The notes under the pieces are model-generated. The model did no database searches and was not told where the DNA came from. It saw nothing but the letters and a program-made list of their open reading frames with translations. Positions 1,682-43,034 of a stretch of 64,000 bases of DNA are shown here, one piece after another. This stretch comes from a virus, in the IMG/VR virus record IMGVR_UViG_3300029112_000175, positions 1,552 to 65,551 of that record, one strand, 5' to 3'. How positions within the stretch are numbered: the stretch's first letter is position 1; each line of letters begins with the position of its first letter. The translations under genes and the position numbers were made by a program.

Positions 1682-2155
1682 TTACTTATTCTCCAAAATA
1701 TTTTTATTTAGATACGAAATGTACTTATCCCATTTACCGATAGAATGAATATATTCTTTACCTTTTAATCCTTTTAGTTTCATATCCGCACGAAGCTGCT
1801 CCCAAGTGAGCTTTTTAGTGACTAATGATTTTAAAAATGAATTGGTGCTATGTGTTAGCTCTATAAAGCGTTCACGAGGTAATTTAGCCACTATTTCTTT
1901 GTAGACAACTAAATCTTCGTCTGGGATAATATAAGTGCTGCGACATAAGTTTTTCGCACTATAAGGACTAATGCCAGCGCCACTTGTTCTAGGTTTTAAT
2001 AATGGGATAATTTTGTCAGAATCGACAAACTTGAATTCGAATGTTACTTCTGCATCAGTTTTCCTGATATTGAAAATCATGCTTGGATCAATCTCATTGA
2101 TTGCTTTGATAATGTTGTTTCCACGACCAATAGACGGGATATATGCTTGTAGCAC
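1682..2155 (-). CDS. hypothetical protein
   Basis: ORF in compact minus-strand array; abuts neighbouring ORF. Confidence 0.4.
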   Translation of the reverse strand: MLQAYIPSIGRGNNIIKAINEIDPSMIFNIRKTDAEVTFEFKFVDSDKIIPLLKPRTSGAGISPYSAKNLCRSTYIIPDEDLVVYKEIVAKLPRERFIELTHSTNSFLKSLVTKKLTWEQLRADMKLKGLKGKEYIHSIGKWDKYISYLNKNILENK

Positions 2156-2328
2156 ATTTCTTCCTTGATAAAAAATCTGAATGTTATTCTGGCAAGCAAT
2201 ATACAGGTCTATATCTTCATATGTTCCATTCAGTTTTCGTGGAAAGTCATTTTTGCTTAGGTCAATAGGAACCAGAATTCTGTAGACTCCTTTAAATTTA
2301 TCTATTAGAAAACTCGTAATCTCACTCC

Positions 2329-2604
2329 TTAATATTCTTCATAATATGTTTCGTGTTTCACCGTTGATTTATTCTTTTCTGCATTCTTTACTTTCTGCAA
2401 GGCTGTTTTCCTGTCCTGAAATACAATTTTATCTAAATCAGTATAATGTAGGAGGTAAGCGTGACGATCACGCTTATCACTCCCTACAAAATAATCATCT
2501 TCCACAGTACGGATAATTAGTTCACAGACTTCAAAAATTCCTGTCTGTGGAATTGCTCTTGCATAGTAAAGGATGTCTTTTTTATGAACATCTTCTTTAG
2601 TCAC
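2329..2604 (-). CDS. hypothetical protein
   Basis: ORF overlapping the nrdG start by 8 nt. Confidence 0.4.
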   Translation of the reverse strand: MTKEDVHKKDILYYARAIPQTGIFEVCELIIRTVEDDYFVGSDKRDRHAYLLHYTDLDKIVFQDRKTALQKVKNAEKNKSTVKHETYYEEY

Positions 2605-3220
2605 AATATAAGACCACCTTTTGTTGTTTTAATGTTTCTGGAATATTGATAACACGCTGATTTTTGCTACCTCGCCACTTCGTTGTTACATCTCTCTGTG
2701 CATCTACATATGGTCCATCTACAAGAACATCTACCATTTTTACAATGTCAATACGCTTTTCTTCCTCTTCTGTTGGAATTGTATTGATAAGCAATGGTTG
2801 TAAAATCTGTTCCAATGTATAACCGGTATATAGCCAGATTGTTTTTGCGGGATATAAAAGGCGGATTTGATCGAAATTTTGTGATGAAAAATCACCCATT
2901 TTACAATGAATTTCAGGGGTCAAATTTGGAGAAGCAGGATATTCAGTGCGAATTTCTTGCAAAAGATCTAAGATACCATCAAGATTTGAAGACGCTAATG
3001 GTTCACCTCCAAGAATTGATATTCTTTTTATATACGGTTTGTCAATTAAATCTAAAAAGTGTTTTTTTGTATCATTATTCCATTCTTTTCCACCATTAAA
3101 ATCCCATGCTGTTGAATTAAAACAGTTGTAACATTGAAAAGGACAGCCTTGGACGAACAAAGATACTCCTATGTTCTCTCCATTTGTAATGTCCATAGAT
3201 CTCATAGAAGCATATCTCAT
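2597..3220 (-). CDS. nrdG: Anaerobic ribonucleoside-triphosphate reductase activating protein (radical SAM)
   Basis: GCPFQCYNCFN cluster motif near the N-terminus. Size is ~207 aa. It sits immediately downstream of nrdD with a start/stop overlap. Confidence 0.8.
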   Translation of the reverse strand: MRYASMRSMDITNGENIGVSLFVQGCPFQCYNCFNSTAWDFNGGKEWNNDTKKHFLDLIDKPYIKRISILGGEPLASSNLDGILDLLQEIRTEYPASPNLTPEIHCKMGDFSSQNFDQIRLLYPAKTIWLYTGYTLEQILQPLLINTIPTEEEEKRIDIVKMVDVLVDGPYVDAQRDVTTKWRGSKNQRVINIPETLKQQKVVLYCD

Positions 3221-5467
3221 TTAAATCTCCTCATCTTCAACATCGTCAAGATGGTAAACACGGTCGTGGATATCTCCATATCTTCCTTGGTTTCCACCAT
3301 TTTTTGCAGTTCCAATATATCCGCATACTCTGAAAGCAATATCCATCGTAGTATTGTCAGTATTCCCACAATTAGGGCATTCCCACTTTAATTTGTTGTT
3401 TTCATCTGCAACTAACGGAATGTCACCATCATATCCACATTTCTCACAATAACAACTCTTAGTATTGATTTCGGCATACATAATATTGTTATAAATGAAC
3501 TTAATTACTTCCAATAAAGCTGGGATGTTATGATTCATACTCGGAACCTCGATGTAAGAAATTGCTCCTCCTGGACTTAATTTCTGGAATTTTGATTCAA
3601 TTCTTAATTTTTCAAATGCAGTAATAGGTTCAAATACAGGAATATGATATGAATTCGTGATATAGTTTCTGTCAAACCCATCTAATTTTACAAAGACATC
3701 ATTTCCAAAACGAGATTTTAAACATTTTGCAAATTTATACGTTGTGCTCTCAATTGGGGATCCATATAAACTATAATCAATATTCTCTTTTTCTTTCCAC
3801 TGGTTGCATTTATCATTTAATGCCTGCATAACTTTTAATCCGAATTCTTCCCCAATGCCTTCATCTGAATGGGAATGACCTGTCATATATTTTACACATT
3901 CATATAAACCAGCATAACCTAATGAGATTGTTGAATATCCATCATATAAAAGTCTGTCAATTTTTTCATGCTTTTTCAATCTTGCATATGCACCATGCTG
4001 CCATAAAATAGGCGCTACATCTGATAAAGTTCCTAACAAACGATCATGCCTTGCTCTTAATGCTTTGTGACATAATTCTGTTCTTTCTTCAAAAATCTCC
4101 CAGAATCTATCGAAATCGCCTTCAGAAGACAAAGCAATGTCCGGTAAACTAATTGTTACTACACCTTGATTGAATCTTCCATAATATTTATGTTTGGTTG
4201 GATCAAAATTTTTAGAATTGGAAATATTCCCACATGTTTTAGAAAAGCGATCTACGGTAAGAAAACTGCGACAACCCATGCAAGTGTAAACATCGCCTTT
4301 TAATTCAAGCATCATTTTTTCAGAGATATAATCAGGAACAAGACGTTTAGAAGAGCATTCGGCAGCTAACTGTGTTAAAGACCAATATGGTGAATCTTCC
4401 TGGATGTTATCATTTTCAAGAACATAGATTAATTTAGGAAATGCGGGTGCAACATATGCCCCGTCTTCATTTTTTACTCCTAAAATTCGCTGACGAAGCA
4501 TTTCTTCGATTAGTAAAGCTAAATCATATTTTTCCTGTTCATTTTTTGCTTCATTTAAGTACATAAAAATACTGATAAATGGGGCCTGTCCGTTGGTTGT
4601 CATAAGAGTTACCAATTGATACTGGATTGTCTGAATTCCTTTTTCAATCTCTTCTTTTAATCGTTTTTCGACAATATTATTAATTAACTGTTCTTTAGAT
4701 AATACATAGATATTTTCAACTAAGGTTAATTCTTCATCTACCTGTTTGCGAATTTTTTGTCTGCTGATATCTACAAATGGAGCCAGATGAGCTAAGGAAA
4801 TACTTTGTCCACCATACTGATTACTAGCAATCTGTGCAATTGCCTGTGTAGCAATATTGCAAGCAGTAGAAAATGCATGTGGTTTTTCAATTAACACTTC
4901 GCTAATTACAGTATTATTCTGAAGCATATCTTCAAGATTAACTAATCCGCAGTTATGCATATGCTGGATAAAGTAATCTGCATCATGAAAATGAATCTGT
5001 CCTTCCATATGAGCCTGAATAATTTCAGGTGAAAGTAAATATCTTTTGGTTGCATCTGTACTTACCGATCCAGCAATATAATCTCTTTTAGTTGGATTTA
5101 ACACGGGATTTTTATTGGCATTTTCGTCTTTCCAATATTCATCAAGGTCTTCTACTAATCTTAAAATTTCATCATCTGTCGTATTACTATTTTCACGCTG
5201 AAATTCTCTGATGCTTCTATAACCCTCATATGCTTTTGCAGTAAGACGCTGTTTTTTTGTGATTAGTTTATCGTAAACCATTGATTCAATTTCGGAAATA
5301 TTTACCTCGTCTTTATCCTTGCATTCTAGTTCAATTTCTGTCGCAATATCCTCTGCAATTTTAGGTTTTACAATGCCTGAGCCATTCTTCATTGCCTTTA
5401 AAATAGCAGAAGAAATTTTAGACTTGTCAAATGGTACTTCTGTACAATCTCTTTTAATAACCTGCAT
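3221..5467 (-). CDS. nrdD: Anaerobic ribonucleoside-triphosphate reductase (class III RNR)
   Basis: N-terminal ATP-cone (VIKRDCTEVPFDKSKI). C-terminal Zn ribbon (CEKCGYDG...CPNCG). Glycyl-radical motif FRVCGYIG. Strong SD AGGAGGATAAG before the ATG. Confidence 0.9.
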   Translation of the reverse strand: MQVIKRDCTEVPFDKSKISSAILKAMKNGSGIVKPKIAEDIATEIELECKDKDEVNISEIESMVYDKLITKKQRLTAKAYEGYRSIREFQRENSNTTDDEILRLVEDLDEYWKDENANKNPVLNPTKRDYIAGSVSTDATKRYLLSPEIIQAHMEGQIHFHDADYFIQHMHNCGLVNLEDMLQNNTVISEVLIEKPHAFSTACNIATQAIAQIASNQYGGQSISLAHLAPFVDISRQKIRKQVDEELTLVENIYVLSKEQLINNIVEKRLKEEIEKGIQTIQYQLVTLMTTNGQAPFISIFMYLNEAKNEQEKYDLALLIEEMLRQRILGVKNEDGAYVAPAFPKLIYVLENDNIQEDSPYWSLTQLAAECSSKRLVPDYISEKMMLELKGDVYTCMGCRSFLTVDRFSKTCGNISNSKNFDPTKHKYYGRFNQGVVTISLPDIALSSEGDFDRFWEIFEERTELCHKALRARHDRLLGTLSDVAPILWQHGAYARLKKHEKIDRLLYDGYSTISLGYAGLYECVKYMTGHSHSDEGIGEEFGLKVMQALNDKCNQWKEKENIDYSLYGSPIESTTYKFAKCLKSRFGNDVFVKLDGFDRNYITNSYHIPVFEPITAFEKLRIESKFQKLSPGGAISYIEVPSMNHNIPALLEVIKFIYNNIMYAEINTKSCYCEKCGYDGDIPLVADENNKLKWECPNCGNTDNTTMDIAFRVCGYIGTAKNGGNQGRYGDIHDRVYHLDDVEDEEI

Positions 5468-5478
5468 CTCTTATCCTC

Positions 5479-5670
5479 CTATTTCCTACATGCATCTACG
5501 ATTGTTCGCCAATCTTCGATGAAAAATTTATAATTATTATCTTCATTGCAGAAATTCGTTAAGTTACTCCAACTTTGGTGATAACTTGGAACTGCTGTAC
5601 ATCGATAACATTTATCTTTCTTTTTGCATTTTTCTGCTAGACACATGGTAATATCAGCCATATATACCAC
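5479..5670 (-). CDS. small Cys-rich hypothetical protein
   Basis: ORF-track start is GTG; an internal ATG (MADITMC...) has SD GAGGTGG. Confidence 0.4.
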   Translation of the reverse strand: MVYMADITMCLAEKCKKKDKCYRCTAVPSYHQSWSNLTNFCNEDNNYKFFIEDWRTIVDACRK

Positions 5671-5671
5671 C

Positions 5672-5812
5672 TCACATATCCTTAATTAGCACTTTAAGTT
5701 TTTCCAAATGCTTATATTTTTCTGACGAATACTTTGTATGATCCTTGGCAATCATCTTGGTCTGTTTTTCACAGATTAACTCAATAAGCAACTTCTTATC
5801 ATTCTTTGTCAT
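5672..5812 (-). CDS. small hypothetical protein (46 aa, not in ORF track)
   Basis: Manual translation gives MTKNDKKLLIELICEKQTKMIAKDHTKYSSEKYKHLEKLKVLIKDM. Its ATG overlaps the TGA of the upstream ORF as ATGA. Confidence 0.35.
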   Translation of the reverse strand: MTKNDKKLLIELICEKQTKMIAKDHTKYSSEKYKHLEKLKVLIKDM

Positions 5813-5994
5813 CTTAACAAACACCCACTTCCTGTTTCTCTAATTTTTAAACACCTATGAGAACTTGGTGTGTCACCACATCCAAATACCCTTCCGATGT
5901 TCTCAATAATATATTCTCTATTATTTAGCATTACAGTGATAAAATCATTTTCCTTAAGTAATTCCTTTGCAAGCATTTCTGAATTAGTGATCAA
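5809..5994 (-). CDS. hypothetical protein
   Basis: ORF in array. Confidence 0.35.
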   Translation of the reverse strand: MITNSEMLAKELLKENDFITVMLNNREYIIENIGRVFGCGDTPSSHRCLKIRETGSGCLLR

Positions 5995-6563
5995 AACTTA
6001 ATATCACCACCGATCAGCTTAAGATATACGTCTGTCCAGTTATATAATCTTTCTCCATACCAATCTTTGTTCCACTCATATAAATCACCAAAACAGAATT
6101 TATACTGAGCATTTGATGTTCTAAGATTGTTAGCATTATCATCGATAAAGATACCGCCATACATATCTACACACGATTTATCATTATGTTTATCTAAATC
6201 TACACCAATGAATTTAATATCAGGGAATTGTGCTTTGATCCAAGCTTCTTTGAGAAGTAAATTAGGTGAATACCCATGAGATACAACTGTTACATCATAG
6301 GCTTTACAGAGAATTGAGATAACTTCTTTTGCCCACGGCATAAAGTTTAGCCTGTCAAAAAATCGCTGCTGATTAAAATAGCAGTCAATATAATCTGGTG
6401 TAGCACATTTACACTCTTTAAAGCACCATGTCTCCACCCTCCACCAAGGGACATACTGAAAATCAGGATAAGCGGCAAAATCTTCATTATATAAAGAAAT
6501 GATTCCTTCAATAGTATTTGTGATCACACCATCAAAATCTAAAAATAATTTCTTTCTTATCAT
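5991..6563 (-). CDS. HAD-family 5'(3')-deoxyribonucleotidase
   Basis: N-terminal DFDGVI motif (DxDx[TV]). Size and pattern match NT5C-like phage nucleotidases. Confidence 0.7.
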   Translation of the reverse strand: MIRKKLFLDFDGVITNTIEGIISLYNEDFAAYPDFQYVPWWRVETWCFKECKCATPDYIDCYFNQQRFFDRLNFMPWAKEVISILCKAYDVTVVSHGYSPNLLLKEAWIKAQFPDIKFIGVDLDKHNDKSCVDMYGGIFIDDNANNLRTSNAQYKFCFGDLYEWNKDWYGERLYNWTDVYLKLIGGDIKF

Positions 6564-7111
6564 ACATGATCCTCCAGATATTCATTAATATAGTTTAATG
6601 TCTGGTCAAGATCGTCATTGTAGTTGTTATAGCAGATTCTATCTACTACAGTTTCAAAGCCTTTAAAATCATCATTATCAGTTTTTACCCTACGCTCTGC
6701 TTCCTTATCATCATCTCCACGATCCTTTAATCTTTTCTTAATGGTAGAATTATTAGCATAGATATAAAGTAACTTATGCTGCACAGAATAATTCTCGGTG
6801 ATGTCTTTGTATCCAGCCGGTGTTACAATCAGCAAATCTTTTGGACCAGCATTTACTACATCTTCTGTCGCTACACCATAATGGCATCTACCAAATTCTG
6901 CATCATATACCTTATATTCTGCAAAAAATCCTTCTTCTATCTTTTTTTCGAACTCTTCTTCGGAAATAAAATGGTAGTCAATTCCATCTACTTCCTTATT
7001 TCTAATAGGTCTTGTAGTGTATGTGACAATTTTCTTGTATCCGAACTTTTTGCAAAGCTCAGATACAATTCTTGTCTTTCCACTACAGGTCTTACCTGCA
7101 ATAAAAATCAT
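6560..7111 (-). CDS. Guanylate kinase-like (d)NMP kinase
   Basis: P-loop GKTCSGKT, then TYTTRPIR (the Gmk TTR..R motif) and an EYKVYD..YG block. Confidence 0.7.
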   Translation of the reverse strand: MIFIAGKTCSGKTRIVSELCKKFGYKKIVTYTTRPIRNKEVDGIDYHFISEEEFEKKIEEGFFAEYKVYDAEFGRCHYGVATEDVVNAGPKDLLIVTPAGYKDITENYSVQHKLLYIYANNSTIKKRLKDRGDDDKEAERRVKTDNDDFKGFETVVDRICYNNYNDDLDQTLNYINEYLEDHV

Positions 7112-7347
7112 ACGTTATCTCTCCACATCTTCATATCTTTATAGAATTTATCCAGGACAACAGGATTAGATGTATTAATAGAAACAATACACTTCTTATT
7201 AAAACCTGCTGAAATTACGCCTAATAATGATTTGGCATCGACAACATAATGGTCAAATCTATAGTCGATGCTCTCTGTATATTCATTACACTGAGCAACA
7301 AATAAACCTGCATCCTGAACATTGTTTAATTGGATTATCATCTCCAT
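7108..7347 (-). CDS. HPr/Crh-like phosphocarrier-fold protein lacking the catalytic His15
   Basis: Alignable to HPr over its full length. GLFVAQ occupies the GIHARPA position, so His15 is Phe and Arg17 is Ala. The Ser46 region KSLLGVISAGFNKKCIVSI matches KSIMGVMSLGIAKGAEITI. Confidence 0.6.
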   Translation of the reverse strand: MEMIIQLNNVQDAGLFVAQCNEYTESIDYRFDHYVVDAKSLLGVISAGFNKKCIVSINTSNPVVLDKFYKDMKMWRDNV

Positions 7348-7362
7348 TTATATATTCTCCTT

Positions 7363-9357
7363 TTACTGATGAATCATTGCCATTAGCTCTTCTTCTGTAA
7401 TGATCGGAATACCTAATGATTTTGCTTTCTTATTCTTCGAGCTGCTAGAATTAATATCATTATTTACGAGGTATGAAGTCTTGGCGCTCACAGTATCAGA
7501 TACCTTACCACCATATGCCAAGATCTCCGCTTTAGCAGCGTCTCGAATGGTATAGTGATTTAAACTACCAGTAATGACAAATGTCCTACCTTCCAACTTT
7601 TTAGAGTCTACGGCATTCATAGCTTCTTTTAGTGGAGATACTGGCAGTTCAAAGATAAACTCTGTAGAAAGATCCATTACATCATCTATATGTTTCTTGA
7701 AATAAGTATTCATAGAGCCAATAAGTGAATCACCTACACCTGGCAGATGTCTGAAATAATCTGCTCCTTCTACAGTCATTACATGAATGAATGTTCCGTA
7801 ATCACTATCTACTGCTTCAGCGATTGCAGCACTTGCTGTCTTACCCAAAAGTGGAATTGAAAGTGAATATAGGAAACGAGATAAAGTTGTATTACGACTT
7901 GCTTCGATAGAGCTAAGAAGTTTATCTACAGACTTTTTGCCAAAACCATCTAAGGTTTTCATTACTTTTTCATGGGAATGTAGATAATAAATATCTTTAA
8001 TGGAAGTGAGCCAACCAAGAGAAATGAATTTTTCGATTGTTGACTCTGACAGGCCATCAATATTTAATGCATTGCGGCTTACTGCGTGAGTAAGTTTTCC
8101 AAGGAGTTTACCTTTACAATCTGGATTAGTACAAAAAAGCTGTTTGGAGTCATTTTCTTTTATAATCTGAGTCTTACCACCACAAATAGGACAAGTATCA
8201 GGAATGTGGATAAATTGAATATTTGCACTACAGCTATCAGTTTTTTCTCCCCATGTCACCTGCGGTATAATTTGGTTTTTCTTGCATACGCCAATTTCCT
8301 GACCTTTGAATGGTTTATGTAAAAGATCAGCCATAATAGAAATGTTATGCAATGAAGCCCTTTCAACAATTGTCTGTTCTAGTTCCACGGGTTCAAAGAC
8401 CGCAACAGGAGTTAAAACGCCAGTCTTACCCATTCCCCATTCAATATCTTTTAATGTGGTTGTAACTTCCTCATCATAAAATTTAAATGCTAAGGAATGT
8501 CTCGGATGATGTCCTGTCATACCAAGAGATTTACCATATTCTACATCATTGTATGTAATAACGAGACCATCGATAGGATATGATTTTTCTTCTGCGACAG
8601 CTTTTAATTCATCAATGATCTTATTAATGTCATCTTTATCACTGTTATAAAGAATGTATGGAACAACTTCAAAACCTTGCTCTTTTGCATAATTAAATCC
8701 ATCAGTAAATCTTGTAAATCCATATGGCACTTTCCATGCAACAAATCTTATATGACGTTCTTTTGCAATCTTACTATCCAGCTGACGTACCGATCCAGAA
8801 GCAAGATTTCTTGGATTCTTATACTTATCGTCCTCTGCTAATTTACTATTGATCTTTTCAAAATCTTCTTTGGTGATAATTGCTTCGCCTTCGATTTCAA
8901 ACTTATGCGTATTTGAAACCTTTAGCGGTAAATTATCAAAGACTTTAGCATTATGAGTGATCAATTCACCAATCTCACCATTGCCACGAGTTTCACCCTG
9001 AATTAAGCTGCCATTCTCAAAAGTACATAGTGTTGTTAATCCGTCTAACTTTAAAGAAATAATACAATCTCTTCCATCAGAAAACTTAACTAGATCATCT
9101 GTTGCTTTGGTTTTGTCCAAAGATAACATTGGATGTGAGTGTGTTATCTTTTCCAGTTTTGACTTTACTTCATACCCTACTGTCTGGGTAGGTGAGTTAC
9201 CATAAATAATATTCGTTTCATGCTCTAACTGCTCTAACTCATCATACAGATTGTCGTATTCATAATCACTCATTGGACTATTTGAGTTATTATAATACTG
9301 ATTACGAGCATCATTTAGAACTGTAATAAGCTCTTTAATTCTCTGTACTTTGTCCAT
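7363..9357 (-). CDS. ligA: NAD-dependent DNA ligase
   Basis: KLDG adenylation motif (ISLKLDGLT). Zn finger CPICGGK...CTNPDC. C-terminal HhH/BRCT region. 664 aa. SD AAGGAGCG before the ATG. Confidence 0.9.
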   Translation of the reverse strand: MDKVQRIKELITVLNDARNQYYNNSNSPMSDYEYDNLYDELEQLEHETNIIYGNSPTQTVGYEVKSKLEKITHSHPMLSLDKTKATDDLVKFSDGRDCIISLKLDGLTTLCTFENGSLIQGETRGNGEIGELITHNAKVFDNLPLKVSNTHKFEIEGEAIITKEDFEKINSKLAEDDKYKNPRNLASGSVRQLDSKIAKERHIRFVAWKVPYGFTRFTDGFNYAKEQGFEVVPYILYNSDKDDINKIIDELKAVAEEKSYPIDGLVITYNDVEYGKSLGMTGHHPRHSLAFKFYDEEVTTTLKDIEWGMGKTGVLTPVAVFEPVELEQTIVERASLHNISIMADLLHKPFKGQEIGVCKKNQIIPQVTWGEKTDSCSANIQFIHIPDTCPICGGKTQIIKENDSKQLFCTNPDCKGKLLGKLTHAVSRNALNIDGLSESTIEKFISLGWLTSIKDIYYLHSHEKVMKTLDGFGKKSVDKLLSSIEASRNTTLSRFLYSLSIPLLGKTASAAIAEAVDSDYGTFIHVMTVEGADYFRHLPGVGDSLIGSMNTYFKKHIDDVMDLSTEFIFELPVSPLKEAMNAVDSKKLEGRTFVITGSLNHYTIRDAAKAEILAYGGKVSDTVSAKTSYLVNNDINSSSSKNKKAKSLGIPIITEEELMAMIHQ

Positions 9358-9550
9358 TTTCGCTCCTTTCTTTCTTATCTAATTGTTCTAACAGATTACT
9401 GCCAAAACAAATAACTCCGTCTATAAAACTTACATATTCCTTATTTTCTACATCATACGCCCATTCTAACGAATCTTTAATAGTGGTAAATAAGGCGTTG
9501 AAAACATCATTTCTTCCCATAGTTTTATTCTCCTTTTTCAACAAAAACAT
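9335..9550 (-). CDS. hypothetical protein
   Basis: ORF in array. Confidence 0.35.
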   Translation of the reverse strand: MFLLKKENKTMGRNDVFNALFTTIKDSLEWAYDVENKEYVSFIDGVICFGSNLLEQLDKKERSENGQSTEN

Positions 9551-9574
9551 CTGATTTTAAGATACAAAATGCCC

Positions 9575-9640
9575 GAACACAAGCGTGTGAACCACTGCGC
9601 CGGATGGTTCTTTGTTCTCTACCCACTTTTTCATAGTATC
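9575..9640 (-). terminator. GC-rich hairpin cluster, candidate intrinsic terminator downstream of 9698..10411
   Basis: GAACCACTGCGCCGGATGGTTC is an inverted repeat and CACAAGCGTGTG is a palindrome. Both sit in an otherwise AT-rich intergenic gap, flanked by T-rich runs. Confidence 0.35.
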
Positions 9641-9697
9641 CTCCACAAAATCTTAATTTTGCTTACCATTCATGCTGCCCTGCTTTAATTTCAAACT

Positions 9698-10411
9698 TCA
9701 ATTCGTCTCTTTATGTGTTTCATAGAAATATTCATTATACAGATCGTATCTCTTCTGGATATCCGCCCAATCTACATCACCATATTTATCTTTTGCCCAA
9801 TTTATAAACCTCTTAATATATCCACATGTTTTGAATTCAGGACAACCAAATCTGTATATGCAGTTTGGTGTGAGTACATCAGATTCTGCCGGATGTGTTT
9901 TATGTAATGTTATTTTAAAATCTTCTGCTAATTCTCTTGCGTCTTTAGTACAACAGAAACATAATCTCTTACGCCAAACATCAATTAAATTCTGCATGTT
10001 AGCGTATCCATCAAAATTTACAGGATTTTTCTGTGGAGCGTCATCTCTGGATAATGGATGATATTCAATATTCTGTTTTGTAGTTTCATCCCATACTGTA
10101 TAACCTTTTTCAGTATTAAGTTCTGAAAATCCTCTATCGTCTCTTGCTGTAGATATAAATTTTTCATATTTGTGACGGCTCATTTCAGTGCTCAACCAAT
10201 ATTTAATTGCTTTCCAAGTCCAATCAAATTCAAGCAATCTAATAGGACTATGCTCAGAAATAAGCAGTTTTTTCTTAAAAATATCTGTAGCATCTTTTTC
10301 TGTAAAATCTTTGTTATCTGTTGTACGGCAATGATTCTTTACTCTTCTCCAATCATCGCCAATCCAATTAAAAACCGTTTTCATTTTCTTCCTTCTCCTC
10401 CCATTTTTCAT
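9698..10411 (-). CDS. Possible flavin-dependent thymidylate synthase (ThyX)-like protein; true start probably the second Met (10384)
   Basis: Weak ThyX-like segments EHSPIRLLEF and SRHKYEKFISTARDDRG (RHR..S..R-like). A strong SD GGAGGAGAAGGAAG precedes the internal ATG (MKTVFNW). Confidence 0.3.
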   Translation of the reverse strand: MKNGRRRKKMKTVFNWIGDDWRRVKNHCRTTDNKDFTEKDATDIFKKKLLISEHSPIRLLEFDWTWKAIKYWLSTEMSRHKYEKFISTARDDRGFSELNTEKGYTVWDETTKQNIEYHPLSRDDAPQKNPVNFDGYANMQNLIDVWRKRLCFCCTKDARELAEDFKITLHKTHPAESDVLTPNCIYRFGCPEFKTCGYIKRFINWAKDKYGDVDWADIQKRYDLYNEYFYETHKETN

Positions 10412-10698
10412 TTAATCTCATTGCTGACCAAGCACTTAACGTACACGGAAGCGCAAGCATTCCAATTACTGTTATTACTAATAGAATACAAATTATTCCC
10501 ATCATGAAATCTAGCATTATATTCTTCACTAGGCACCTCCACCATATGGTATTGTTGTAATTTTATAAATCCAGTTGTTAATGTTGAAAACTAATCCTGT
10601 AGAGATATATTTTCCTGATTTAGTTAAATATCCTACATATTTCTTCTTTAATACTTTTGAATTCATATGTATTTATCCTTTCTGATGAAACTGAACTT

Positions 10699-10944
10699 TT
10701 AGCGCCAAGAAATATTCCAAAAAGATTCATTATACTGAGAATCACTTTTTACTTTATAGCCCATTTTTCGTAATTTTTCTATAATAGCAAAGCTTAACGC
10801 ATCATCTCCACTAATAGAAAATTCTCCTTTGTCTATAGCTGCTCGAATTTCTGAATTGATCTCTGCCATTTTCTGTGATGTTAAATTATCAATACTCTGC
10901 TCTGTCATAGCTTTTGCTTCAGCAGCAGATAATAACTTTTCCAT
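10699..10944 (-). CDS. hypothetical protein
   Basis: ORF in array. Confidence 0.35.
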   Translation of the reverse strand: MEKLLSAAEAKAMTEQSIDNLTSQKMAEINSEIRAAIDKGEFSISGDDALSFAIIEKLRKMGYKVKSDSQYNESFWNISWR

Positions 10945-10995
10945 TTATATGTTCTCCTTTTTAATTGTTTTCTTGGAAATCTAAGCTGAACTGCT

Positions 10996-11343
10996 CTAAG
11001 AATTTTTATTTAAGATACTTCCTTTACTGTCCAAAAAAAATACATAATCGCCATTTTCTTGTTTGTAGTTAGAAATATCATTACTTTTAATGGTGATTTT
11101 TGTTCCCATTTCTAAACAACAATATTCCATAAAGAATTTATTACAAGAAGAAGCTGGAATAATTCTAAATGCATTTTCTCCTGCAACTTTAATATCAAAC
11201 GGAACTTCGACCTTAAAACATGAATCAACAACCTCAAGCACTCTAATTGTATTTAAAATAATATTCTTTTTTCGTAAATCACAATAACTTCCATTAAACA
11301 TTTCGGTTTCGTAAACTTTTACTAATTCTTCATGTTTTTCCAT
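10996..11343 (-). CDS. hypothetical protein
   Basis: ORF in array. Confidence 0.35.
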   Translation of the reverse strand: MEKHEELVKVYETEMFNGSYCDLRKKNIILNTIRVLEVVDSCFKVEVPFDIKVAGENAFRIIPASSCNKFFMEYCCLEMGTKITIKSNDISNYKQENGDYVFFLDSKGSILNKNS

Positions 11344-11375
11344 ACTTTATATTTCCTTATATTTTTAATTTTTCA

Positions 11376-11606
11376 CTAATAATATTTATTGGTAATTCCA
11401 ACTCCATTATTTTTCTGAATATCACTTCTGCTTGCTAAAATTTGATATTTAACCTTACAACAATTATGAGGATTGCCACCGCATTTAGTGATATCGTATC
11501 CATGTTCGCACCAAAAATGTTCATTATATCCTTCATAATAACAGCATTTATCTCCTAATTTGTTCTGCCATTTGTTAGGATCATGCCTTGGTTTGTTCTT
11601 TCCCAC
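11376..11606 (-). CDS. Cys-rich small protein
   Basis: Multiple CC/CxxC pairs. Confidence 0.35.
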   Translation of the reverse strand: MGKNKPRHDPNKWQNKLGDKCCYYEGYNEHFWCEHGYDITKCGGNPHNCCKVKYQILASRSDIQKNNGVGITNKYY

Positions 11607-11609
11607 ACT

Positions 11610-11810
11610 CTACTCCTTTGTATTTAAGTGGCAAATATGCCCTAATGGATTTCCAGCACATTTAATCACACCGATAAAAATCAAATCATCATGTCCTTTT
11701 AATTCTTCTAAATCCTTGTATGCTTCTGCTGCCGTATCTTTTCCTGTACATGTTATACTGTTCCCATACATATCCTTGCAGCAAGCATAATACTTATACT
11801 GCTTTGCCAT
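11610..11810 (-). CDS. Cys-rich small protein
   Basis: ORF abutting neighbours. Confidence 0.35.
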   Translation of the reverse strand: MAKQYKYYACCKDMYGNSITCTGKDTAAEAYKDLEELKGHDDLIFIGVIKCAGNPLGHICHLNTKE

Positions 11811-12271
11811 TATCTCAACTCCATTTCGCCATACTTCAGATCATTATTACTGAATACCTTGCATCCTCTATATTCTCCTAAATAATCTACTCCTAATCCT
11901 GGACTATCCATTGGTGACGCCACTAAAAATGAATCGATCATCTTGCCGTTTACAAATATGTATGGAGATCTTTTCTGTGAATTTTCATATAACTGGATTT
12001 CGGTCATAATTTTCTCCGAGTCAAGAATCGTCTTTAGAATTGAAAACTTTGCCATTTTATCACCGTTCAATCTTGGATTCTTACCAATTGATTTACACAT
12101 CTCTATATAATCATCTACAGCTTTATGGAACTCATCTTCGATTGTAGAAATATTCTCAGAATGAAAACTAACGGAATCATCAATATTGATAATTTCGCCA
12201 CAATAGACATCATCTTCTTGACTGTAGACGATTCTGGTTTTATAACCTTTGTATTCTAAAATTTTATTCAT
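11810..12271 (-). CDS. hypothetical protein
   Basis: ORF in array. Confidence 0.4.
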   Translation of the reverse strand: MNKILEYKGYKTRIVYSQEDDVYCGEIINIDDSVSFHSENISTIEDEFHKAVDDYIEMCKSIGKNPRLNGDKMAKFSILKTILDSEKIMTEIQLYENSQKRSPYIFVNGKMIDSFLVASPMDSPGLGVDYLGEYRGCKVFSNNDLKYGEMELR

Positions 12272-21046: not shown

Positions 21047-21289
21047 CTACACCATCTCAGGATATTCACTAAACATCTCAAAGAATTTACTCTCATCGTT
21101 CTTATCAGAACACCATAACTCTAATTCTTCACCGTACTCTCCTAGCAGTTTTGCAATAGCAATGTACTGCGTTAGCTTAGATTTGAGATTAAGTTTGTCT
21201 CCATATACCGATGTCAAGATCACATCTCCACTACACTTATCTACTGTTGCCAGAAAGGCTTCTACATCTTTAATATTTTTGATTTTCAT
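21047..21289 (-). CDS. hypothetical protein
   Basis: ORF in array. Confidence 0.35.
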   Translation of the reverse strand: MKIKNIKDVEAFLATVDKCSGDVILTSVYGDKLNLKSKLTQYIAIAKLLGEYGEELELWCSDKNDESKFFEMFSEYPEMV

Positions 21290-36229: not shown

Positions 36230-37108
36230 TTACTCTTCACCAACAAAAACTAATCTATCAATATATTCTCTACCTTCGCCCTTGAAAATAGGGATATCTA
36301 TATCAATAATCCACTCATTTTCAGACTTAGAAGTATCTCTTAACTGCGCAGTTGTCATGACACTATCAGTTTCAATAACAATCTTATTTCTTACACAACA
36401 GCTTCCTCTCTTCTGATAAGTCGGTAAATCGTTCCAGTTAATACCTTTCTGAGTAATAAGCATATCCTGAATATCATTGCATGATTTATTCTGTAATTCT
36501 TTATGTGAGAAATTAGCTTGACCTACCATCTGAATTGAGTTATGAGAAGCGTCTAATTGCCTCCAATATACGAGATTTGTTACTTCTTCTTTTGGAATAT
36601 TGAAACAACGAGCATCGAACATTGCACCTTTGTCAACTGCTTTTGTGTAAATTTGACACATTTCATATTCTGGTGTACCTTTCCCATACCACCCATTGAT
36701 TTCATGTTCTGTTGCATAACACTGTTCAAAATCCTCTACATTCTTGGAAAAAGCTTTATTAAAAGCCATCGTAGCCATACTTGCCGCAATACTACAAATC
36801 TTCTGTACTTCATAATCAAACCATGCTGAAGATGTGAGCTTCTTATAATCAACAAGAATCAATGTAATCTCATCTGACTGCGTGTAACCAAGAACACAGC
36901 CCTGAATATTCTCGCATAAGTATTTCATTGTTTCCTGCATTGACTTAATTAACACTTCATCAAACGGCTTATGGAATCCTCTTGTGAATGTATGGAACGC
37001 CTTTCCATCAATTCTGATAGCAACTGGACACCTTCTCATTAATTTTGTCTTAGGAATCTGCTCATAAAATGTCTTCATGCGACAGCCTAAATCATCATGT
37101 ACTGGCAT
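36230..37108 (-). CDS. Thg1-like protein (tRNA-His guanylyltransferase family, 3'-5' nucleotidyltransferase)
   Basis: N-terminal block FYEQ...RCPVAIRIDGKAFHTFTRGFHKPFDEVLIKSMQETMKYL...GYTQSDEITLIL aligns closely with eukaryotic Thg1 (YVVVRLDGRNFHRFA..KPND..AYGQSDEYSF). SD AGAGAGGT precedes the ATG. Confidence 0.75.
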   Translation of the reverse strand: MPVHDDLGCRMKTFYEQIPKTKLMRRCPVAIRIDGKAFHTFTRGFHKPFDEVLIKSMQETMKYLCENIQGCVLGYTQSDEITLILVDYKKLTSSAWFDYEVQKICSIAASMATMAFNKAFSKNVEDFEQCYATEHEINGWYGKGTPEYEMCQIYTKAVDKGAMFDARCFNIPKEEVTNLVYWRQLDASHNSIQMVGQANFSHKELQNKSCNDIQDMLITQKGINWNDLPTYQKRGSCCVRNKIVIETDSVMTTAQLRDTSKSENEWIIDIDIPIFKGEGREYIDRLVFVGEE

Positions 37109-40446: not shown

Positions 40447-41433
40447 CTACTGCATATTTACGATTGGAGTAGCACTACCCTGAACCTGTGGGACTTCACC
40501 TTTCCACTTCTCGATTTTCTGCTTTTCAATCAGTTCAGGAGTAAGAGATGCTGCAATCTTAGCATTAGCAGTTGCTTCTGCCTCAGATTTAATTCTCATA
40601 GCTTCAGCTTCACCTTCTGCCTGAATCTTTTTCTGCTCTGCAACAATAGAAGCCTTTTCTTTTTCCTGTTCTGCTGCAATAAGAGCAACTTCCTTATCCT
40701 TATCAGCCTGAACCTTCGCAGTTTTTGCCTCAATATTAGCGAGTTCTAATTCCTGCTGTGCAGTTACTTTCTTCTGAATTGCAGCAGATGTTTCAGAATC
40801 TGTGGAAATATTGGTAAAGTTTACTGTGTCAATGATAATTCCATATGGCTCGAATTTCTGTTTTAAATATACATCAAGTGCTTCGTTCAGTTCCTGACGC
40901 TTATCACCGAATACATCAGTTACAGGATACTTAGCAGTTACTTCCTGCGTCCATGCTCTCATCTTTGGTTTAATAAATGTATCTTTAATAGACTTTCCAG
41001 GCTGTCCTTTAAACATAATAAATGTATCTGCAATCTTTGTCTGATCAAACTTATATGAAAATTCAAGATCAACTTTTAACGACTTACCATCAGATGTTGG
41101 AGTGGAAAAACTTTCGTCTGCTGGGGAATCCCCTTTTTCTTCTGATGTAAGATAAGACTGTTCAATACCAATAGAATATGTAGTTACTTTTTTTGTTGGA
41201 GCCACAAAATGCCATCCCTGTGTGATAACTTCTCCATCAACTCCTCCATTCATACTGTTGTATACGATTCCCACATATCCAGCTGGAATTTTCTCTGTAC
41301 ACTTAATTCCTACAAACAGACCACCAGCAATTAATACTGCTAAACCTACTCCACCAATTAAACCTTTACTCATTCTCTTTATTCTCCTCTTTCTTTTCTT
41401 TTTCGTTACCTTTAAGTGCTTTTTTAACATCAT
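40447..41433 (-). CDS. SPFH/Band-7 (stomatin/prohibitin/HflK-like) membrane protein
   Basis: Basic N-terminus then a TM helix (LIGGVGLAVLIAGGLFVGI). SPFH core (AGYVGIV...). Long Ala/Glu/Lys-rich coiled coil. Confidence 0.6.
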   Translation of the reverse strand: MMLKKHLKVTKKKRKRRIKRMSKGLIGGVGLAVLIAGGLFVGIKCTEKIPAGYVGIVYNSMNGGVDGEVITQGWHFVAPTKKVTTYSIGIEQSYLTSEEKGDSPADESFSTPTSDGKSLKVDLEFSYKFDQTKIADTFIMFKGQPGKSIKDTFIKPKMRAWTQEVTAKYPVTDVFGDKRQELNEALDVYLKQKFEPYGIIIDTVNFTNISTDSETSAAIQKKVTAQQELELANIEAKTAKVQADKDKEVALIAAEQEKEKASIVAEQKKIQAEGEAEAMRIKSEAEATANAKIAASLTPELIEKQKIEKWKGEVPQVQGSATPIVNMQ

Positions 41434-42788: not shown

Positions 42789-42817
42789 TATTTATCACTC
42801 CTTTTTATTTTTATTAC

Positions 42818-42886
42818 TTCCTCATCTTGGACTCGAACCAAGTTTTGCAGAGTGAGCTGCCGTGCTTCCTATTACACCAATGAGAA
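42818..42886 (-). tRNA. tRNA-like gene; anticodon loop noncanonical (6-nt loop CUCACU), identity undetermined
   Basis: Minus-strand sequence TTCTCAT-TG-GTGT-AATAGGAA-GCAC-G-GCAG-CTCACT-CTGC-AAAA-CTTGG-TTCGAGT-CCAAG-ATGAGGA-A. Acceptor stem is perfect at 7 bp. T-arm is CTTGG/CCAAG with loop TTCGAGT. D-arm has a GG loop. No encoded CCA. Confidence 0.5.
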
Positions 42887-43034
42887 ACCATAAACGTTTT
42901 ATTAAGTGGCTCTGTTGCTTAAGTCTGCGCATCAACCAAGCAATAACAATCCGATGGGAAATTTGTTTTTAAAGTTTTACATCCTCTTGCCACCGTTCTG
43001 CGACTTTCCACATCACAGATGAATCAGAGCCAAC

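What the first reader, a model, noticed from the sequence alone, without database searches (positions are those of the whole stretch)
7108..7347. Crh-like HPr homolog lacking His15 but keeping the Ser46 region
This 79-aa protein aligns along its whole length with HPr. The active-site GIHARPA is GLFVAQ, so His15 is Phe and Arg17 is Ala. The HprK/P target region KS(I/L)(M/L)GV... is conserved.

This mirrors Bacillus Crh, which cannot take part in PTS phosphotransfer but acts in carbon catabolite control through Ser46-P and CcpA. A phage copy could mimic HPr-Ser-P to rewire host catabolite regulation, or sequester HprK/P. The gene sits inside the nucleotide-metabolism operon, between the guanylate-kinase-like gene and ligA.
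Basis: partly seen in the sequence, partly recalled or inferred. Interest (0 to 1): 0.65.

Follow-up and report, generated by a model that had tools for sequence, protein, structure and literature searches.

The report
Short His-less HPr-like phage protein
A large gut phage carries a small, strongly conserved copy of the bacterial sugar-signalling protein HPr that has lost the histidine loop needed for sugar transport but kept the regulatory serine; it belongs to a very large, uncharacterised family of such proteins in Clostridia, so it is most likely a host-derived regulator, with its target still unknown.

Summary
The 79-aa ORF at 7108-7347 (-) is a real gene. It has a Shine-Dalgarno site, a 4-bp overlap with the next gene, and dN/dS of 0.07-0.12. 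It has an HPr fold: Pfam PF00381 scores 23.9 bits against a cut-off of 23, the AF2 model has pLDDT 92, and every top PDB fold match is HPr or Crh.

GLFVAQ is the middle of helix A (HPr 20-25). The G-I-H tripeptide is deleted, and Asn9 sits at the helix N-cap where His15 would be. The Lys-Ser-(I/L)-(M/L)-Gly motif (K39-S40) does align with K45-S46.

The protein is not a Crh orthologue. It belongs to a distinct short (73-84 aa), His-less HPr-like family:
- It scores 64.7 bits against a bacterial-only family profile.
- The family has about 2,700 50%-identity clusters at E≤1e-10 and is widespread in Clostridia, often at a conserved housekeeping locus and sometimes in sugar operons.
- At least 15 lineages of mostly large gut phages carry it, usually directly after a DNA ligase in the nucleotide-metabolism block.

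PTS phosphotransfer is excluded. A regulatory role through the Ser40/helix-B face is inferred; host HprK/P is the best candidate partner. CcpA co-repression looks doubtful. This is a new variant of a known kind, of moderate interest.

The parts
7108..7347 (-). Gene for the 79-aa short His-less HPr-like protein (sHPr)
   Evidence: ORF. Pfam PF00381 at 23.9 bits. 64.7 bits, E=3e-21, full length, on a bacterial-only family HMM. AF2 pLDDT 92.3. Foldseek top hits are HPr/Crh. dN/dS is 0.07-0.12 against its closest relatives.
7357..7362 (-). Shine-Dalgarno AAGGAG, 9 nt upstream of the ATG and immediately after the ligA stop codon (TAA, 7363-7365)
   Evidence: Read directly from the sequence.
7312..7329 (-). 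Codons L7-D12: the shortened b1-aA turn that replaces the HPr active-site loop G13-I-H-A-R-P18. Asn9 is the helix N-cap in the His15 slot.
   Evidence: MAFFT shows a 3-residue gap exactly at G-I-H. The model helix starts at residue 10. Family-wide, position 9 is S, T or N in 368 of 385 sequences.
7210..7239 (-). Codons D37-S46 (DAKSLLGVIS): the Ser46-type motif at the start of helix B. The Ser40 codon is 7228-7230 and the Lys39 codon is 7231-7233.
   Evidence: Aligned with HPr/Crh V-N-A-K-S-I-M-G. Ser40 is present in 385/385, Lys39 in 383/385 and Gly43 in 384/385 family sequences. Part of that set was retrieved with this motif.
7108..7111 (-). ATGA overlap: the sHPr stop codon overlaps the start codon of the guanylate-kinase-like gene (translational coupling)
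   Evidence: Coordinates and sequence. The same 4-bp overlap occurs in relatives L180-L184.
6560..7111 (-). Downstream neighbour: guanylate-kinase-like P-loop kinase (183 aa)
   Evidence: Pfam Guanylate_kin, E=1.2e-18.
7363..9357 (-). Upstream neighbour: NAD-dependent DNA ligase LigA (664 aa)
   Evidence: Pfam DNA_ligase_aden, OB, ZBD and BRCT. The order ligase -> sHPr is conserved in most related phages, even where LigA is replaced by an ATP-dependent ligase.
2597..6563 (-). Rest of the co-oriented nucleotide-metabolism block: NT5C deoxynucleotidase (5991-6563), small ORFs, NrdD (3221-5467) and an NrdG-like activase (2597-3220)
   Evidence: Pfam. No terminator-like site on the minus strand between ligA and nrdD.

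Best explanation
**What it is (shown).** This is a phage copy of a distinct subfamily of the HPr superfamily, here called sHPr. Members are 73-84 aa and have an HPr fold. The loop between strand 1 and helix A is 3 residues shorter and carries no histidine, arginine or proline. The motif D-A-K-S-(I/L)-(M/L)-G-(I/V)-x-S at the start of helix B is near-invariant. The family is very large in Clostridia. The window's gene belongs to an old phage-specific branch, inherited with the ligase/nucleotide-metabolism block of large human-gut phages.

**How it most likely works (inferred).** It cannot take part in PEP-dependent phosphotransfer. It acts as a small regulatory adaptor that uses the conserved helix-A/helix-B face. 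Ser40 is the likely switch, phosphorylated and dephosphorylated by the host HPr kinase/phosphorylase. That would let the phage read, or compete within, the host's HPr-Ser signalling. It would stand in for the host's own sHPr and bias carbon and energy metabolism while the neighbouring genes supply deoxynucleotides.

**Confidence by step.** Fold and family membership are about 0.95. Loss of the PTS role is about 0.95. A regulatory protein-binding role through the Ser40 face is about 0.6. HprK/P as the specific partner is about 0.35-0.4. The overall figure given (0.45) refers to the mechanistic statement as a whole.
For: **The gene is real and constrained**
- It has an SD site and a 4-bp overlap with the next gene.
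- dN/dS is 0.07-0.12, with synonymous sites saturated in the deeper comparisons.
- The exact protein is found on 157 public contigs up to 225 kb.

**Fold**
- AF2 pLDDT is 92.3.
- The PDB fold matches with probability near 1 are HPr or Crh, including HPr in its complexes with HprK/P and CcpA.

**Family**
- The window protein scores 64.7 bits on a bacterial-only profile, against 23.9 bits on Pfam HPr.
- A profile search gives 2,738 50%-identity clusters at E<=1e-10.
- Members occur in Lachnospiraceae, Oscillospiraceae and other Clostridia.
- NCBI names them only 'HPr family phosphocarrier protein'.

**Motif**
- K-S-I/L-M/L-G-I/V matches the Firmicute HPr/Crh motif around Ser46 more closely than E. 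coli HPr does (K-S-L-F-K).
- Ser40 and Ser46 are invariant in 385 unique members.
- The hydrophobic positions equivalent to Ile47, Met48 and Met51, which CcpA contacts (PMC10287919), stay hydrophobic here (L41, L42, I45).

**Link to carbohydrate metabolism in bacteria**
- Paralogues sit 4-30 bp from a PfkB sugar kinase in an alpha-galactoside/galactose operon, from a GH94 cellobiose phosphorylase, and between an MFS_2 sugar transporter and a GH5 enzyme.

**Recurrence in phages**
- There are 73 IMG/VR loci in about 15 clusters, mostly on contigs above 100 kb.

**Precedent**
- Crh is a His-less HPr paralogue regulated at Ser46.
- F. prausnitzii HPr2(Ser-P) is a transcriptional co-activator (PMC11906611).
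Against: - No experiment or docking links any sHPr to HprK/P.
- Ser46 is also conserved in E. coli HPr, which has no HprK, because it caps helix B. Conservation of K-S alone therefore does not prove phosphorylation.
- From my own recollection of the HprK/P-HPr complex (PDB 1KKL), the region around His15 also contacts the kinase. That loop is remodelled here.
- The window's clade departs from the family consensus in helix B (LLGVISAGF against IMGIFSLDL).
- In 55 of 80 representative genomes the core bacterial sHPr locus lies among RNA-modification and translation genes (MtaB-like, IreB, RuvX, RNase J, ThiI, RsmE, PrmA), not sugar genes.
- In phages the gene always travels with DNA/nucleotide genes, which could point to a different partner.
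- The invariance counts are inflated, because the IMG/VR and GTDB sets were fished with the KS[IL]MG pattern.
- I found no HprK or other PTS gene among the 20 larger window ORFs scanned. The window was not scanned exhaustively.
Confidence: 0.45

Rival explanations
1. The protein is a phosphorylation-independent adaptor for a phage or host enzyme. It binds and modulates an enzyme directly. Precedents are unphosphorylated Crh with methylglyoxal synthase, and HPr with GapA, glycogen phosphorylase, Rsd or LsrK. The target could be a product of its own gene block, such as the translationally coupled guanylate-kinase-like kinase, NrdD/NrdG or the ligase.
For: - The order ligase -> sHPr -> ThyX/Gmk-like/NT5C -> NrdD/NrdG is conserved across many phage lineages, even where LigA is swapped for an ATP-dependent ligase.
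- The window clade has the 4-bp overlap with the kinase gene.
- In bacteria, small-molecule kinases (PfkB, PRK family) sit directly upstream of some copies.
- PDB contains several HPr-enzyme complexes that use the same face (one search lists glycogen phosphorylase, Rsd and FruR complexes).
Against: - Synteny in phage modules often reflects co-inheritance, not interaction.
- The immediate downstream gene differs between lineages (Gmk-like, ThyX, orf237).
- Enterocloster phages place the gene next to a SleB-like hydrolase and RecA instead.
- This does not explain why Lys-Ser is invariant, unless the serine is purely structural.
Confidence: 0.25
2. The protein is a decoy or inhibitor of host HprK/P. 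It binds the kinase/phosphorylase through the conserved Ser46-type helix without productive signalling. This lowers HPr-Ser-P and lifts catabolite repression or inducer exclusion during infection.
For: - The motif shared with HprK/P substrates is retained.
- The phage-specific branch has diverged from the bacterial consensus in the second half of helix B and in helix A (K14->G). This would fit a protein that keeps one contact and has lost another.
Against: - Bacteria themselves encode the family as a conserved core gene, so a purely inhibitory role is not the ancestral one.
- A stoichiometric decoy would need high expression, and there are no expression data.
- No binding evidence exists.
Confidence: 0.12
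3. The protein is a Crh-type co-repressor. Ser40-P sHPr binds host CcpA and imposes constitutive catabolite repression.
For: - Fold matches include HPr and Crh in CcpA complexes (1ZVV, 1RZR, 2FEP).
- The Ile47/Met48/Met51 equivalents remain hydrophobic (PMC10287919).
Against: - The b1-a1 turn and His15, which contribute to CcpA binding (PMC10287919, PMC3526391), are deleted or replaced, and Arg17 is Gln.
- The protein is not a Crh orthologue.
- In the gut clostridial species F. prausnitzii, the CcpA homologue did not bind HPr2-Ser-P (PMC11906611).
Confidence: 0.08
4. The gene is a decaying or functionless passenger picked up from a host.
For: - The catalytic histidine is lost.
- The Pfam score is marginal.
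Against: - dN/dS is 0.07-0.12.
- The same architecture is conserved in thousands of bacterial and about 15 phage lineages.
- Translation signals are intact.
- The model is confident and compact.
Confidence: 0.02

Closest known systems
Crh (catabolite repression HPr) of Bacillus subtilis
   Same: - It has an HPr fold.
- It has no phosphorylatable His15.
- It keeps the K-S-I-M-G Ser46 motif.
- It is a small single-domain protein that works by protein-protein interaction.
   Different: - Crh is 85 aa and keeps the full G-L-Q-A-R-P-A loop, with only His->Gln. Here the loop is 3 residues shorter and lacks Arg17 and Pro18.
- Crh aligns with the sHPr profile only from residue 19 onward and scores 37.8 bits, against 64.7 bits for the window protein.
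- From my own knowledge, Crh is restricted to Bacillales and sits in the yvc (rapZ-yvcK-whiA) operon. The sHPr core locus in Clostridia is divergent from an MtaB-like gene.
HPr (PtsH) of Firmicutes, PF00381 / TIGR01003
   Same: - Same fold: TM 0.6-0.7 to solved HPr structures.
- Same Ser46 motif.
- The Pfam hit is just above the gathering score.
   Different: - There is no His15 and no active-site loop, so no EI -> HPr -> EIIA phosphotransfer is possible.
- It falls far below the NCBIfam cut-offs: 16 against 47.9 bits for TIGR01003.
- It is 6-9 residues shorter.
HPr2 of Faecalibacterium prausnitzii (regulatory HPr paralogue; PMC11906611)
   Same: It is a gut-clostridial HPr paralogue specialised for regulation, acting through Ser46 phosphorylation as a FruR co-activator. 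It shows that Clostridia split the transport and signalling roles between HPr paralogues.
   Different: HPr2 still has His15 and is of normal length. That paper does not mention a short His-less paralogue.
Phage proteins already annotated as HPr-like
   Same: These are the same family or fold in phages:
- Enterocloster phage PMBT24 WDQ45469.1, annotated 'phosphocarrier protein HPR'.
- Gut-virome proteins A0A8S5S213 and A0A8S5PSI8, with TM 0.76-0.77.
   Different: These are automatic labels only. The PMBT24 genome paper does not discuss the gene. Identity to the window protein is 23-31%.

Membership tests
PTS phosphocarrier HPr (PF00381 / TIGR01003) | Open-faced b-a-b-b-a-b-a HPr fold | tested here: met
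   The AF2 model has pLDDT 92.3 with elements b1(2-6), aA(10-20), b2(27-31), b3(34-37), aB(38-43), b4(52-57) and aC(62-71). Foldseek PDB top hits are all HPr/Crh, with probability 1.0.
PTS phosphocarrier HPr (PF00381 / TIGR01003) | Profile score above the curated cut-off | tested here: inconclusive
   Pfam gives 23.9 bits against 23.0, which just passes. NCBIfam TIGR01003 gives 16 against 47.9, PRK13780 gives 20.2 against 110, and PRK13782 gives 18.1 against 123.
PTS phosphocarrier HPr (PF00381 / TIGR01003) | Phosphorylatable His15 in the G-[IL]-H-[AT]-R-P-A loop at the N-cap of helix A | tested here: not met
   There is a 3-residue deletion at G-I-H, with Asn9 at the N-cap and Gln11/Asp12 in place of Arg17/Pro18. 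Only 16 of 385 family members have any His in the 12 residues before F16.
PTS phosphocarrier HPr (PF00381 / TIGR01003) | Accepts phosphate from Enzyme I and passes it to EIIA | not testable with these tools
   This needs biochemistry. It is expected to be negative because the histidine is absent.
Crh (Bacillales catabolite repression HPr) | Ser46 in a K-S-I-M-G context | tested here: met
   K39-S40-L41-L42-G43 aligns with K45-S46-I47-M48-G49.
Crh (Bacillales catabolite repression HPr) | Full-length active-site loop with Gln in place of His15 (G-L-Q-A-R-P-A) | tested here: not met
   The loop is shortened and Arg and Pro are absent.
Crh (Bacillales catabolite repression HPr) | Orthology: closest relatives are Crh proteins | tested here: not met
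   The closest relatives are 75-80 aa proteins of phages and Clostridia. The window protein scores 64.7 bits on the sHPr profile, and Crh scores 37.8 bits there over a partial alignment.
Crh (Bacillales catabolite repression HPr) | Phosphorylated by HprK/P at Ser46, and the Ser-P form binds CcpA | not testable with these tools
   No multimer modelling or biochemistry was available. The CcpA-contacting b1-a1 turn (PMC10287919) is remodelled.
Short His-less HPr-like proteins of Clostridia and their phages (unnamed; annotated 'HPr family phosphocarrier protein') | Full-length match to a profile built from bacterial members only | tested here: met
   64.7 bits, E=3e-21, residues 2-75 of 79 against profile positions 3-75 of 78.
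Short His-less HPr-like proteins of Clostridia and their phages (unnamed; annotated 'HPr family phosphocarrier protein') | Length 73-84 aa, with a short b1-aA turn L-N-[STN]-[IV]-x-[DK] followed by F-V in helix A | tested here: met
   The window has L7-N8-N9-V10-Q11-D12 ... F16-V17. In the family, L is present in 360, S/T/N in 368, F in 383 and V in 363 of 385 sequences.
Short His-less HPr-like proteins of Clostridia and their phages (unnamed; annotated 'HPr family phosphocarrier protein') | Motif D-A-K-S-[IL]-[ML]-G-[IV]-x-S | tested here: met
   The window has D37-A38-K39-S40-L41-L42-G43-V44-I45-S46.

The most novel reading that the evidence does not exclude
Clostridia have a third, so far unstudied class of HPr protein: short, His-less and serine-centred. 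It is a conserved core regulator. Large gut phages captured it long ago and keep a diverged copy as a molecular mimic. That copy plugs into the host's HPr-kinase/HPr-Ser signalling node, or into the unknown partner of the host sHPr, to redirect carbon and energy flow towards nucleotide and DNA synthesis. The same phage may carry a second, more derived HPr-fold protein (21047-21289) with its own invariant Lys-Ser at the start of helix B, which would suggest a small viral toolkit aimed at this node.
Probability: 0.3. Interest if true: 0.7.

Novelty: new variant of a known kind. Interest (0 to 1): 0.45.

Why it matters
HPr-Ser phosphorylation is the central carbon-status signal of Firmicutes. I could find no description of a virus targeting it.

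If the phage protein is a substrate, mimic or decoy in that pathway, it would be a new kind of host-takeover factor in abundant human-gut phages. It would also give a handle on a family of several thousand clostridial proteins that are currently mislabelled 'phosphocarrier' although they cannot carry phosphate on histidine.

For annotation, the practical point is this: proteins of this family should not be counted as PTS components or as evidence of PTS capacity in genomes, MAGs or viral 'auxiliary metabolic gene' surveys.

Tried and rejected
Rejected by phmmer against PDB, MAFFT, hmmsearch and the model.
2. **A true PTS phosphocarrier.** Rejected, because there is no His and no loop.
3. **A Crh orthologue.** Rejected.
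4. **PHROGs.** Gave only one weak hit, to an unannotated family (phrog_19839, E=0.017).
5. **NCBIfam.** Gave only sub-threshold HPr hits.
6. **Literature.** Searches for a His-less HPr in Clostridia/Lachnospiraceae and for phage-encoded HPr found nothing specific. The PMBT24 paper does not mention its 'phosphocarrier' gene.
7. **Structural literature.** I could not obtain the HprK/P-HPr complex paper or the Deutscher 2006 review. Statements about the kinase interface therefore rest on my own recollection and are marked as such.
8. **Promoter/terminator scan of 2000-12000.** Gave counts at or below chance, with no boundary inside the block.
9. **A phage-borne HprK or other PTS gene.** Looked for among 20 larger ORFs and found none. 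Smaller ORFs were not scanned.
10. **Bacterial neighbourhood as a clue to function.** The dominant locus (MtaB-like, IreB, RuvX, RNase J, ThiI, RsmE, PrmA) looks like conserved housekeeping synteny and gives no specific hypothesis.
11. **The second HPr-like hit in the window (21047-21289).** Followed up only as far as fold level.
Full report
**1. What is at the coordinates**

The window is phage DNA of about 33% G+C, and nearly all ORFs lie on the minus strand. PHROG and Pfam hits identify a replication and nucleotide-metabolism region. It contains DNA polymerase, a RecJ-like exonuclease, a DnaB-like helicase, RNA ligase, NrdD with an NrdG-like activase, an NT5C deoxynucleotidase, a guanylate-kinase-like kinase and NAD-dependent LigA.

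The ORF at 7108..7347 (-) encodes 79 aa:
MEMIIQLNNVQDAGLFVAQCNEYTESIDYRFDHYVVDAKSLLGVISAGFNKKCIVSINTSNPVVLDKFYKDMKMWRDNV

- An AAGGAG Shine-Dalgarno site lies 9 nt before its ATG, directly after the ligA stop codon.
- Its stop codon overlaps the start of the kinase gene (ATGA).
- No terminator-like site interrupts the minus strand between ligA and nrdD.
- The exact protein occurs on 157 public contigs, the longest 225 kb.
- Its closest relatives come from human-gut metagenomes, are 76-87% identical, and have the same gene order.
- Against them dN/dS is 0.07 and 0.12, and synonymous sites are saturated in the deeper pairs.

It is therefore a real gene under strong purifying selection.

**2. Is it HPr-like?**

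Yes, on three lines of evidence.
- Pfam PTS-HPr (PF00381) matches at E=4.3e-5 with 23.9 bits, just above the gathering score of 23. The NCBIfam HPr models match only far below their cut-offs.
- phmmer against all PDB sequences returns only HPr and Crh chains at E of 0.01-1. All are in one register: query residues 10-59 against HPr 16-65.
- An AlphaFold2 model built on a 56-sequence alignment has pLDDT 92.3 and the HPr topology: b1 2-6, aA 10-20, b2 27-31, b3 34-37, aB 38-43, b4 52-57, aC 62-71. Its Foldseek matches in PDB are HPr and Crh from many species, with probability 1.0, TM 0.6-0.7 and rmsd about 3 A. They include HPr bound to HprK/P (1KKL) and HPr/Crh bound to CcpA (1RZR, 1ZVV, 2FEP).

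**3.

The Ser46 part is right. D37-A38-K39-S40-L41-L42-G43-V44 aligns with V/N-A/L-K45-S46-I47-M48-G49-V50.

The active-site part is wrong.
- G14-L15-F16-V17-A18-Q19 aligns with HPr residues 20-25 (T/A-V/L-L/F-V-Q-T/E), which is the middle of helix A. It does not align with G13-I-H-A-R-P-A.
- MAFFT with B. subtilis HPr, Crh and E. coli HPr puts a 3-residue gap exactly at G13-I14-H15 in all phage sequences.
- In the model, helix A starts at residue 10. Asn9 therefore sits at the N-cap, where His15 sits in HPr. Gln11 and Asp12 stand where Arg17 and Pro18 would be.

The conclusion 'no His15' survives. The loop, however, is remodelled rather than point-substituted, which matters for the comparison with Crh.

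**4. What family is it?**

A single-sequence search found only close relatives. tblastn against phage genomes found two groups of homologues:
- a 176-kb human-faecal phage (MT835469, 38% identity, syntenic);
- the roughly 100-kb Enterocloster bolteae phages PMBT24 and CB457/CB473 (26-32%), where one copy is annotated 'phosphocarrier protein HPR'.

A profile of these sequences retrieved at least 7,971 proteins of 75-80 aa. Many lie on bacterial contigs of up to 278 kb. An index-free profile search of 1.84 billion representatives gave 2,738 50%-identity clusters at E<=1e-10.

The consensus is MKxFxIxLNSINDVKxFVNxVxKYxxDIDLxSGRYVVDAKSIMGIFSLDLSKPI.... The only names attached are 'HPr family phosphocarrier protein' and 'HPr-like phosphotransfer protein'.

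A profile built from 139 bacterial members alone gives these scores:

| Protein | Score (bits) | Note |
|---|---|---|
| Window protein | 64.7 | full length, E=3e-21 |
| B. subtilis Crh | 37.8 | aligns only from residue ~19-22 onward |
| B. subtilis HPr | 35.6 | aligns only from residue ~19-22 onward |
| E. coli HPr | 16.0 | aligns only from residue ~19-22 onward |

The family is thus a distinct branch of the HPr superfamily, defined by a different N-terminal strand and turn.

In 385 unique members the conservation is as follows.
- The His15 slot is Ser, Thr or Asn in 368.
- Any His within the 12 residues before the conserved Phe occurs in only 16.
- Lys39, Ser40, Gly43 and Ser46 are present in 383, 385, 384 and 385.

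One caveat applies. The IMG/VR and GTDB subsets were retrieved with a KS[IL]MG pattern, so those counts are partly circular. The alignment-based sets show the same invariance.

**5. Where the family lives**

*Bacteria.* Representative genomes carrying it are Lachnospiraceae (Roseburia, Blautia, Agathobacter, Lacrimispora), Oscillospiraceae/Ruminococcaceae, Defluviitaleaceae, Pseudobacteroides and many unnamed Clostridia.
- In 55 of 80 loci the gene is transcribed divergently from an MtaB-like radical-SAM methylthiotransferase, which is followed by IreB, RuvX, a DUF1292-like acidic protein and RNase J. ThiI, a cysteine desulfurase, RsmE and PrmA lie on the other side. This is a conserved housekeeping position, typical of an old core gene.
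- Other copies are embedded in carbohydrate operons. One lies 4 bp after a PfkB kinase in an alpha-galactosidase/GalT cluster. One lies 13 bp after a GH94 cellobiose phosphorylase. One lies between an MFS_2 glycoside transporter and a GH5 enzyme.

*Phages.* IMG/VR holds 73 loci, most on contigs of 100-216 kb from gut samples. They fall into about 15 clusters at 60% identity.
- The window's clade and five others are closest to each other (43-56% identity) and only 35-44% identical to bacterial members. They share the order ligase -> sHPr -> ThyX or orf237 or Gmk-like -> NT5C -> NrdD -> NrdG.
- The ligase is LigA in some phages and an ATP-dependent ligase in otherwise near-identical ones.
- This pattern indicates one old acquisition followed by vertical descent.
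- Other viral clusters are 52-67% identical to bacterial proteins and look like later, separate acquisitions.
- BFVD contains three gut-virome proteins with this fold, carrying automatic HPr-type labels.

**6. Mechanism**

*Shown.* The protein has an HPr fold. It has no histidine and no active-site loop, so it cannot relay phosphate from Enzyme I. It is under strong constraint, and the helix-B motif is conserved.

*Inferred.* The protein works through the helix-A/helix-B face, the surface that HPr uses for CcpA (PMC10287919) and, from general knowledge of the family, for its other partners. Ser40 is the likely control point. Three observations support a serine-centred regulatory role with host HprK/P as the most likely enzyme:
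- The motif K-S-(I/L)-(M/L)-G-(I/V) is the Firmicute type shared by the two known HprK/P substrates, HPr and Crh, and differs from E. coli HPr (K-S-L-F-K).
- The positions equivalent to Ile47, Met48 and Met51 stay hydrophobic.
- Several bacterial paralogues sit in non-PTS sugar operons.

Published precedent shows that Clostridia do separate transport and signalling HPr functions. In F. prausnitzii, HPr2(Ser-P) co-activates FruR (PMC11906611).

Several points weaken this inference.
- Ser46 also caps helix B and is conserved where no HprK exists.
- The loop that also contributes to partner contacts is remodelled.
- The window clade's helix B (LLGVISAGF) departs from the consensus.
- The core bacterial locus and the phage context are not sugar-related.

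His15 and the b1-a1 turn contribute to CcpA binding (PMC3526391, PMC10287919), and the F. prausnitzii CcpA homologue did not bind HPr2-Ser-P (PMC11906611).

A reasonable rival is a phosphorylation-independent adaptor for an enzyme of its own gene block, given the strict synteny and the translational coupling to the kinase gene. A decoy of HprK/P is a further possibility. Decay is excluded by the selection data.

**7. Comparison with what is known, and novelty**

By function the nearest analogue is Crh. By descent the protein is not Crh and not PtsH. It belongs to an unnamed short His-less branch that databases label 'HPr family phosphocarrier protein'.

I found no paper that describes this branch or any phage HPr-like gene. 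The library searched is limited, so absence there is not proof.

I rate it a new variant of a known kind. Interest is moderate. The fold and the Crh-type logic are familiar, and automatic annotation already flags such phage genes. On the other hand, the family is large, unstudied and mislabelled, and a viral effector at the HPr-Ser node would be new.

**8. Side observations**

A second ORF in the window (21047-21289, 80 aa) hits the family profile weakly (E=0.006; hhalign probability 51%).
- It has no Pfam match and has 133 close homologues. The one homologue whose contigs were inspected, P0333, lies in phage-like contexts.
- Its model has pLDDT 91.8 and an HPr-like topology lacking strand 1.
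- Its best PDB matches are the domain-swapped Crh dimer and then HPr.
- Asn34, Lys36 and Ser37 are invariant, and Ser37 lies just before helix B.

The window also encodes:
- an ABC importer (an NMT1/THI5-like binding protein fused to an OmpA-like domain, an ATPase and a permease);
- a Thg1-like protein, an SPFH protein and a truncated adenylosuccinate-synthetase-like protein;
- a 404-aa protein that looks by eye like a WGR plus PARP-catalytic protein.

Noticed in passing
window 21047-21289 (-): An 80-aa ORF (MKIKNIKDVEAFL...NLKSKLTQYIAIAKLLG...ELELWC...) may be a second, more derived HPr-fold protein. It hits the sHPr profile weakly (E=0.006), hhalign gives 51%, and there is no Pfam match. It has 133 close homologues; the one inspected (P0333) lies in phage-like contexts. 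The AF2 model (pLDDT 91.8) shows HPr topology without strand 1. The best PDB fold matches are the domain-swapped Crh dimer (1MO1/1MU4) and then HPr. Invariant N34, K36 and S37 lie just before helix B, like Ser46.
   Followed up: partly
L086-L098 (IMG/VR), gene at about 6001-6240 of each locus: In one group of IMG/VR phage contigs (83-217 kb where not fragmentary), an sHPr of a different sequence type (MKLQKQIILDNVDKVKAFV...) lies about 2 kb beyond NrdG. Other contigs with a similar NT5C-NrdD-NrdG block (L059-L064) have the ligase-adjacent type instead. If both occur in one genome, those phages carry two copies flanking the nucleotide block. The loci were too short to show both on one contig.
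   Followed up: partly
L030-L054 versus L032/L036-L048 (IMG/VR): Phages with nearly identical sHPr genes carry either an NAD-dependent LigA or an ATP-dependent DNA ligase in the same position immediately upstream. This looks like non-orthologous replacement of the ligase.
   Followed up: no
window 48568-52830 (-): The phage encodes an ABC importer: a 536-aa NMT1/THI5-like (NitT/TauT-type) substrate-binding protein fused to a C-terminal OmpA-like domain, two coiled-coil-like ORFs, a 203-aa ABC ATPase and a 248-aa BPD_transp_1 permease. The substrate is unknown.
   Followed up: partly
window 53611-54825 (-): A 404-aa protein that PHROGs labels 'polymerase' (phrog_23333). By eye it has a WGR-like N-terminus and a PARP-type catalytic signature (...LLFHGSRNENWW...GYGIYYA...), so it may be an ADP-ribosyltransferase. 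This was not tested with Pfam.
   Followed up: no
window 36230-37108 (-), 40447-41433 (-), 63017-63853 (-): A Thg1-like tRNA-His guanylyltransferase homologue, an SPFH/Band-7 protein, and a 278-aa protein matching only the middle of adenylosuccinate synthetase. An SPFH gene also follows a bacterial sHPr paralogue in L123.
   Followed up: no
window 9698-10411 (-): A 237-aa ORF with no Pfam or PHROG hit. In related phages (L061-L063, L066) its homologue (54-62% identity) sits immediately after sHPr, where other relatives have ThyX. It may be an unrecognised nucleotide-metabolism enzyme.
   Followed up: no
L100-L179 (bacterial genomes), about 6 kb around each sHPr gene: In 55 of 80 Clostridia genomes sHPr is a lone gene transcribed divergently from mtaB-ireB-ruvX-DUF1292-rnj, with thiI, nifS, rsmE and prmA on the other side. 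This conserved core locus is unexplained.
   Followed up: partly
L001, L003, L004 (Enterocloster phages), residues 7-9 of the sHPr homologue: These homologues read ...IHFHTPEEVK..., with His residues one and three positions before the helix-A N-cap Thr. They are the few family members with histidines near the former active-site position. The significance is unknown.
   Followed up: no
window 42817-42887 (-) and 43033-43107 (-): Two tRNA genes: tRNA-Gln(UUG), and a tRNA with an unusual two-base anticodon call by ARAGORN.
   Followed up: no
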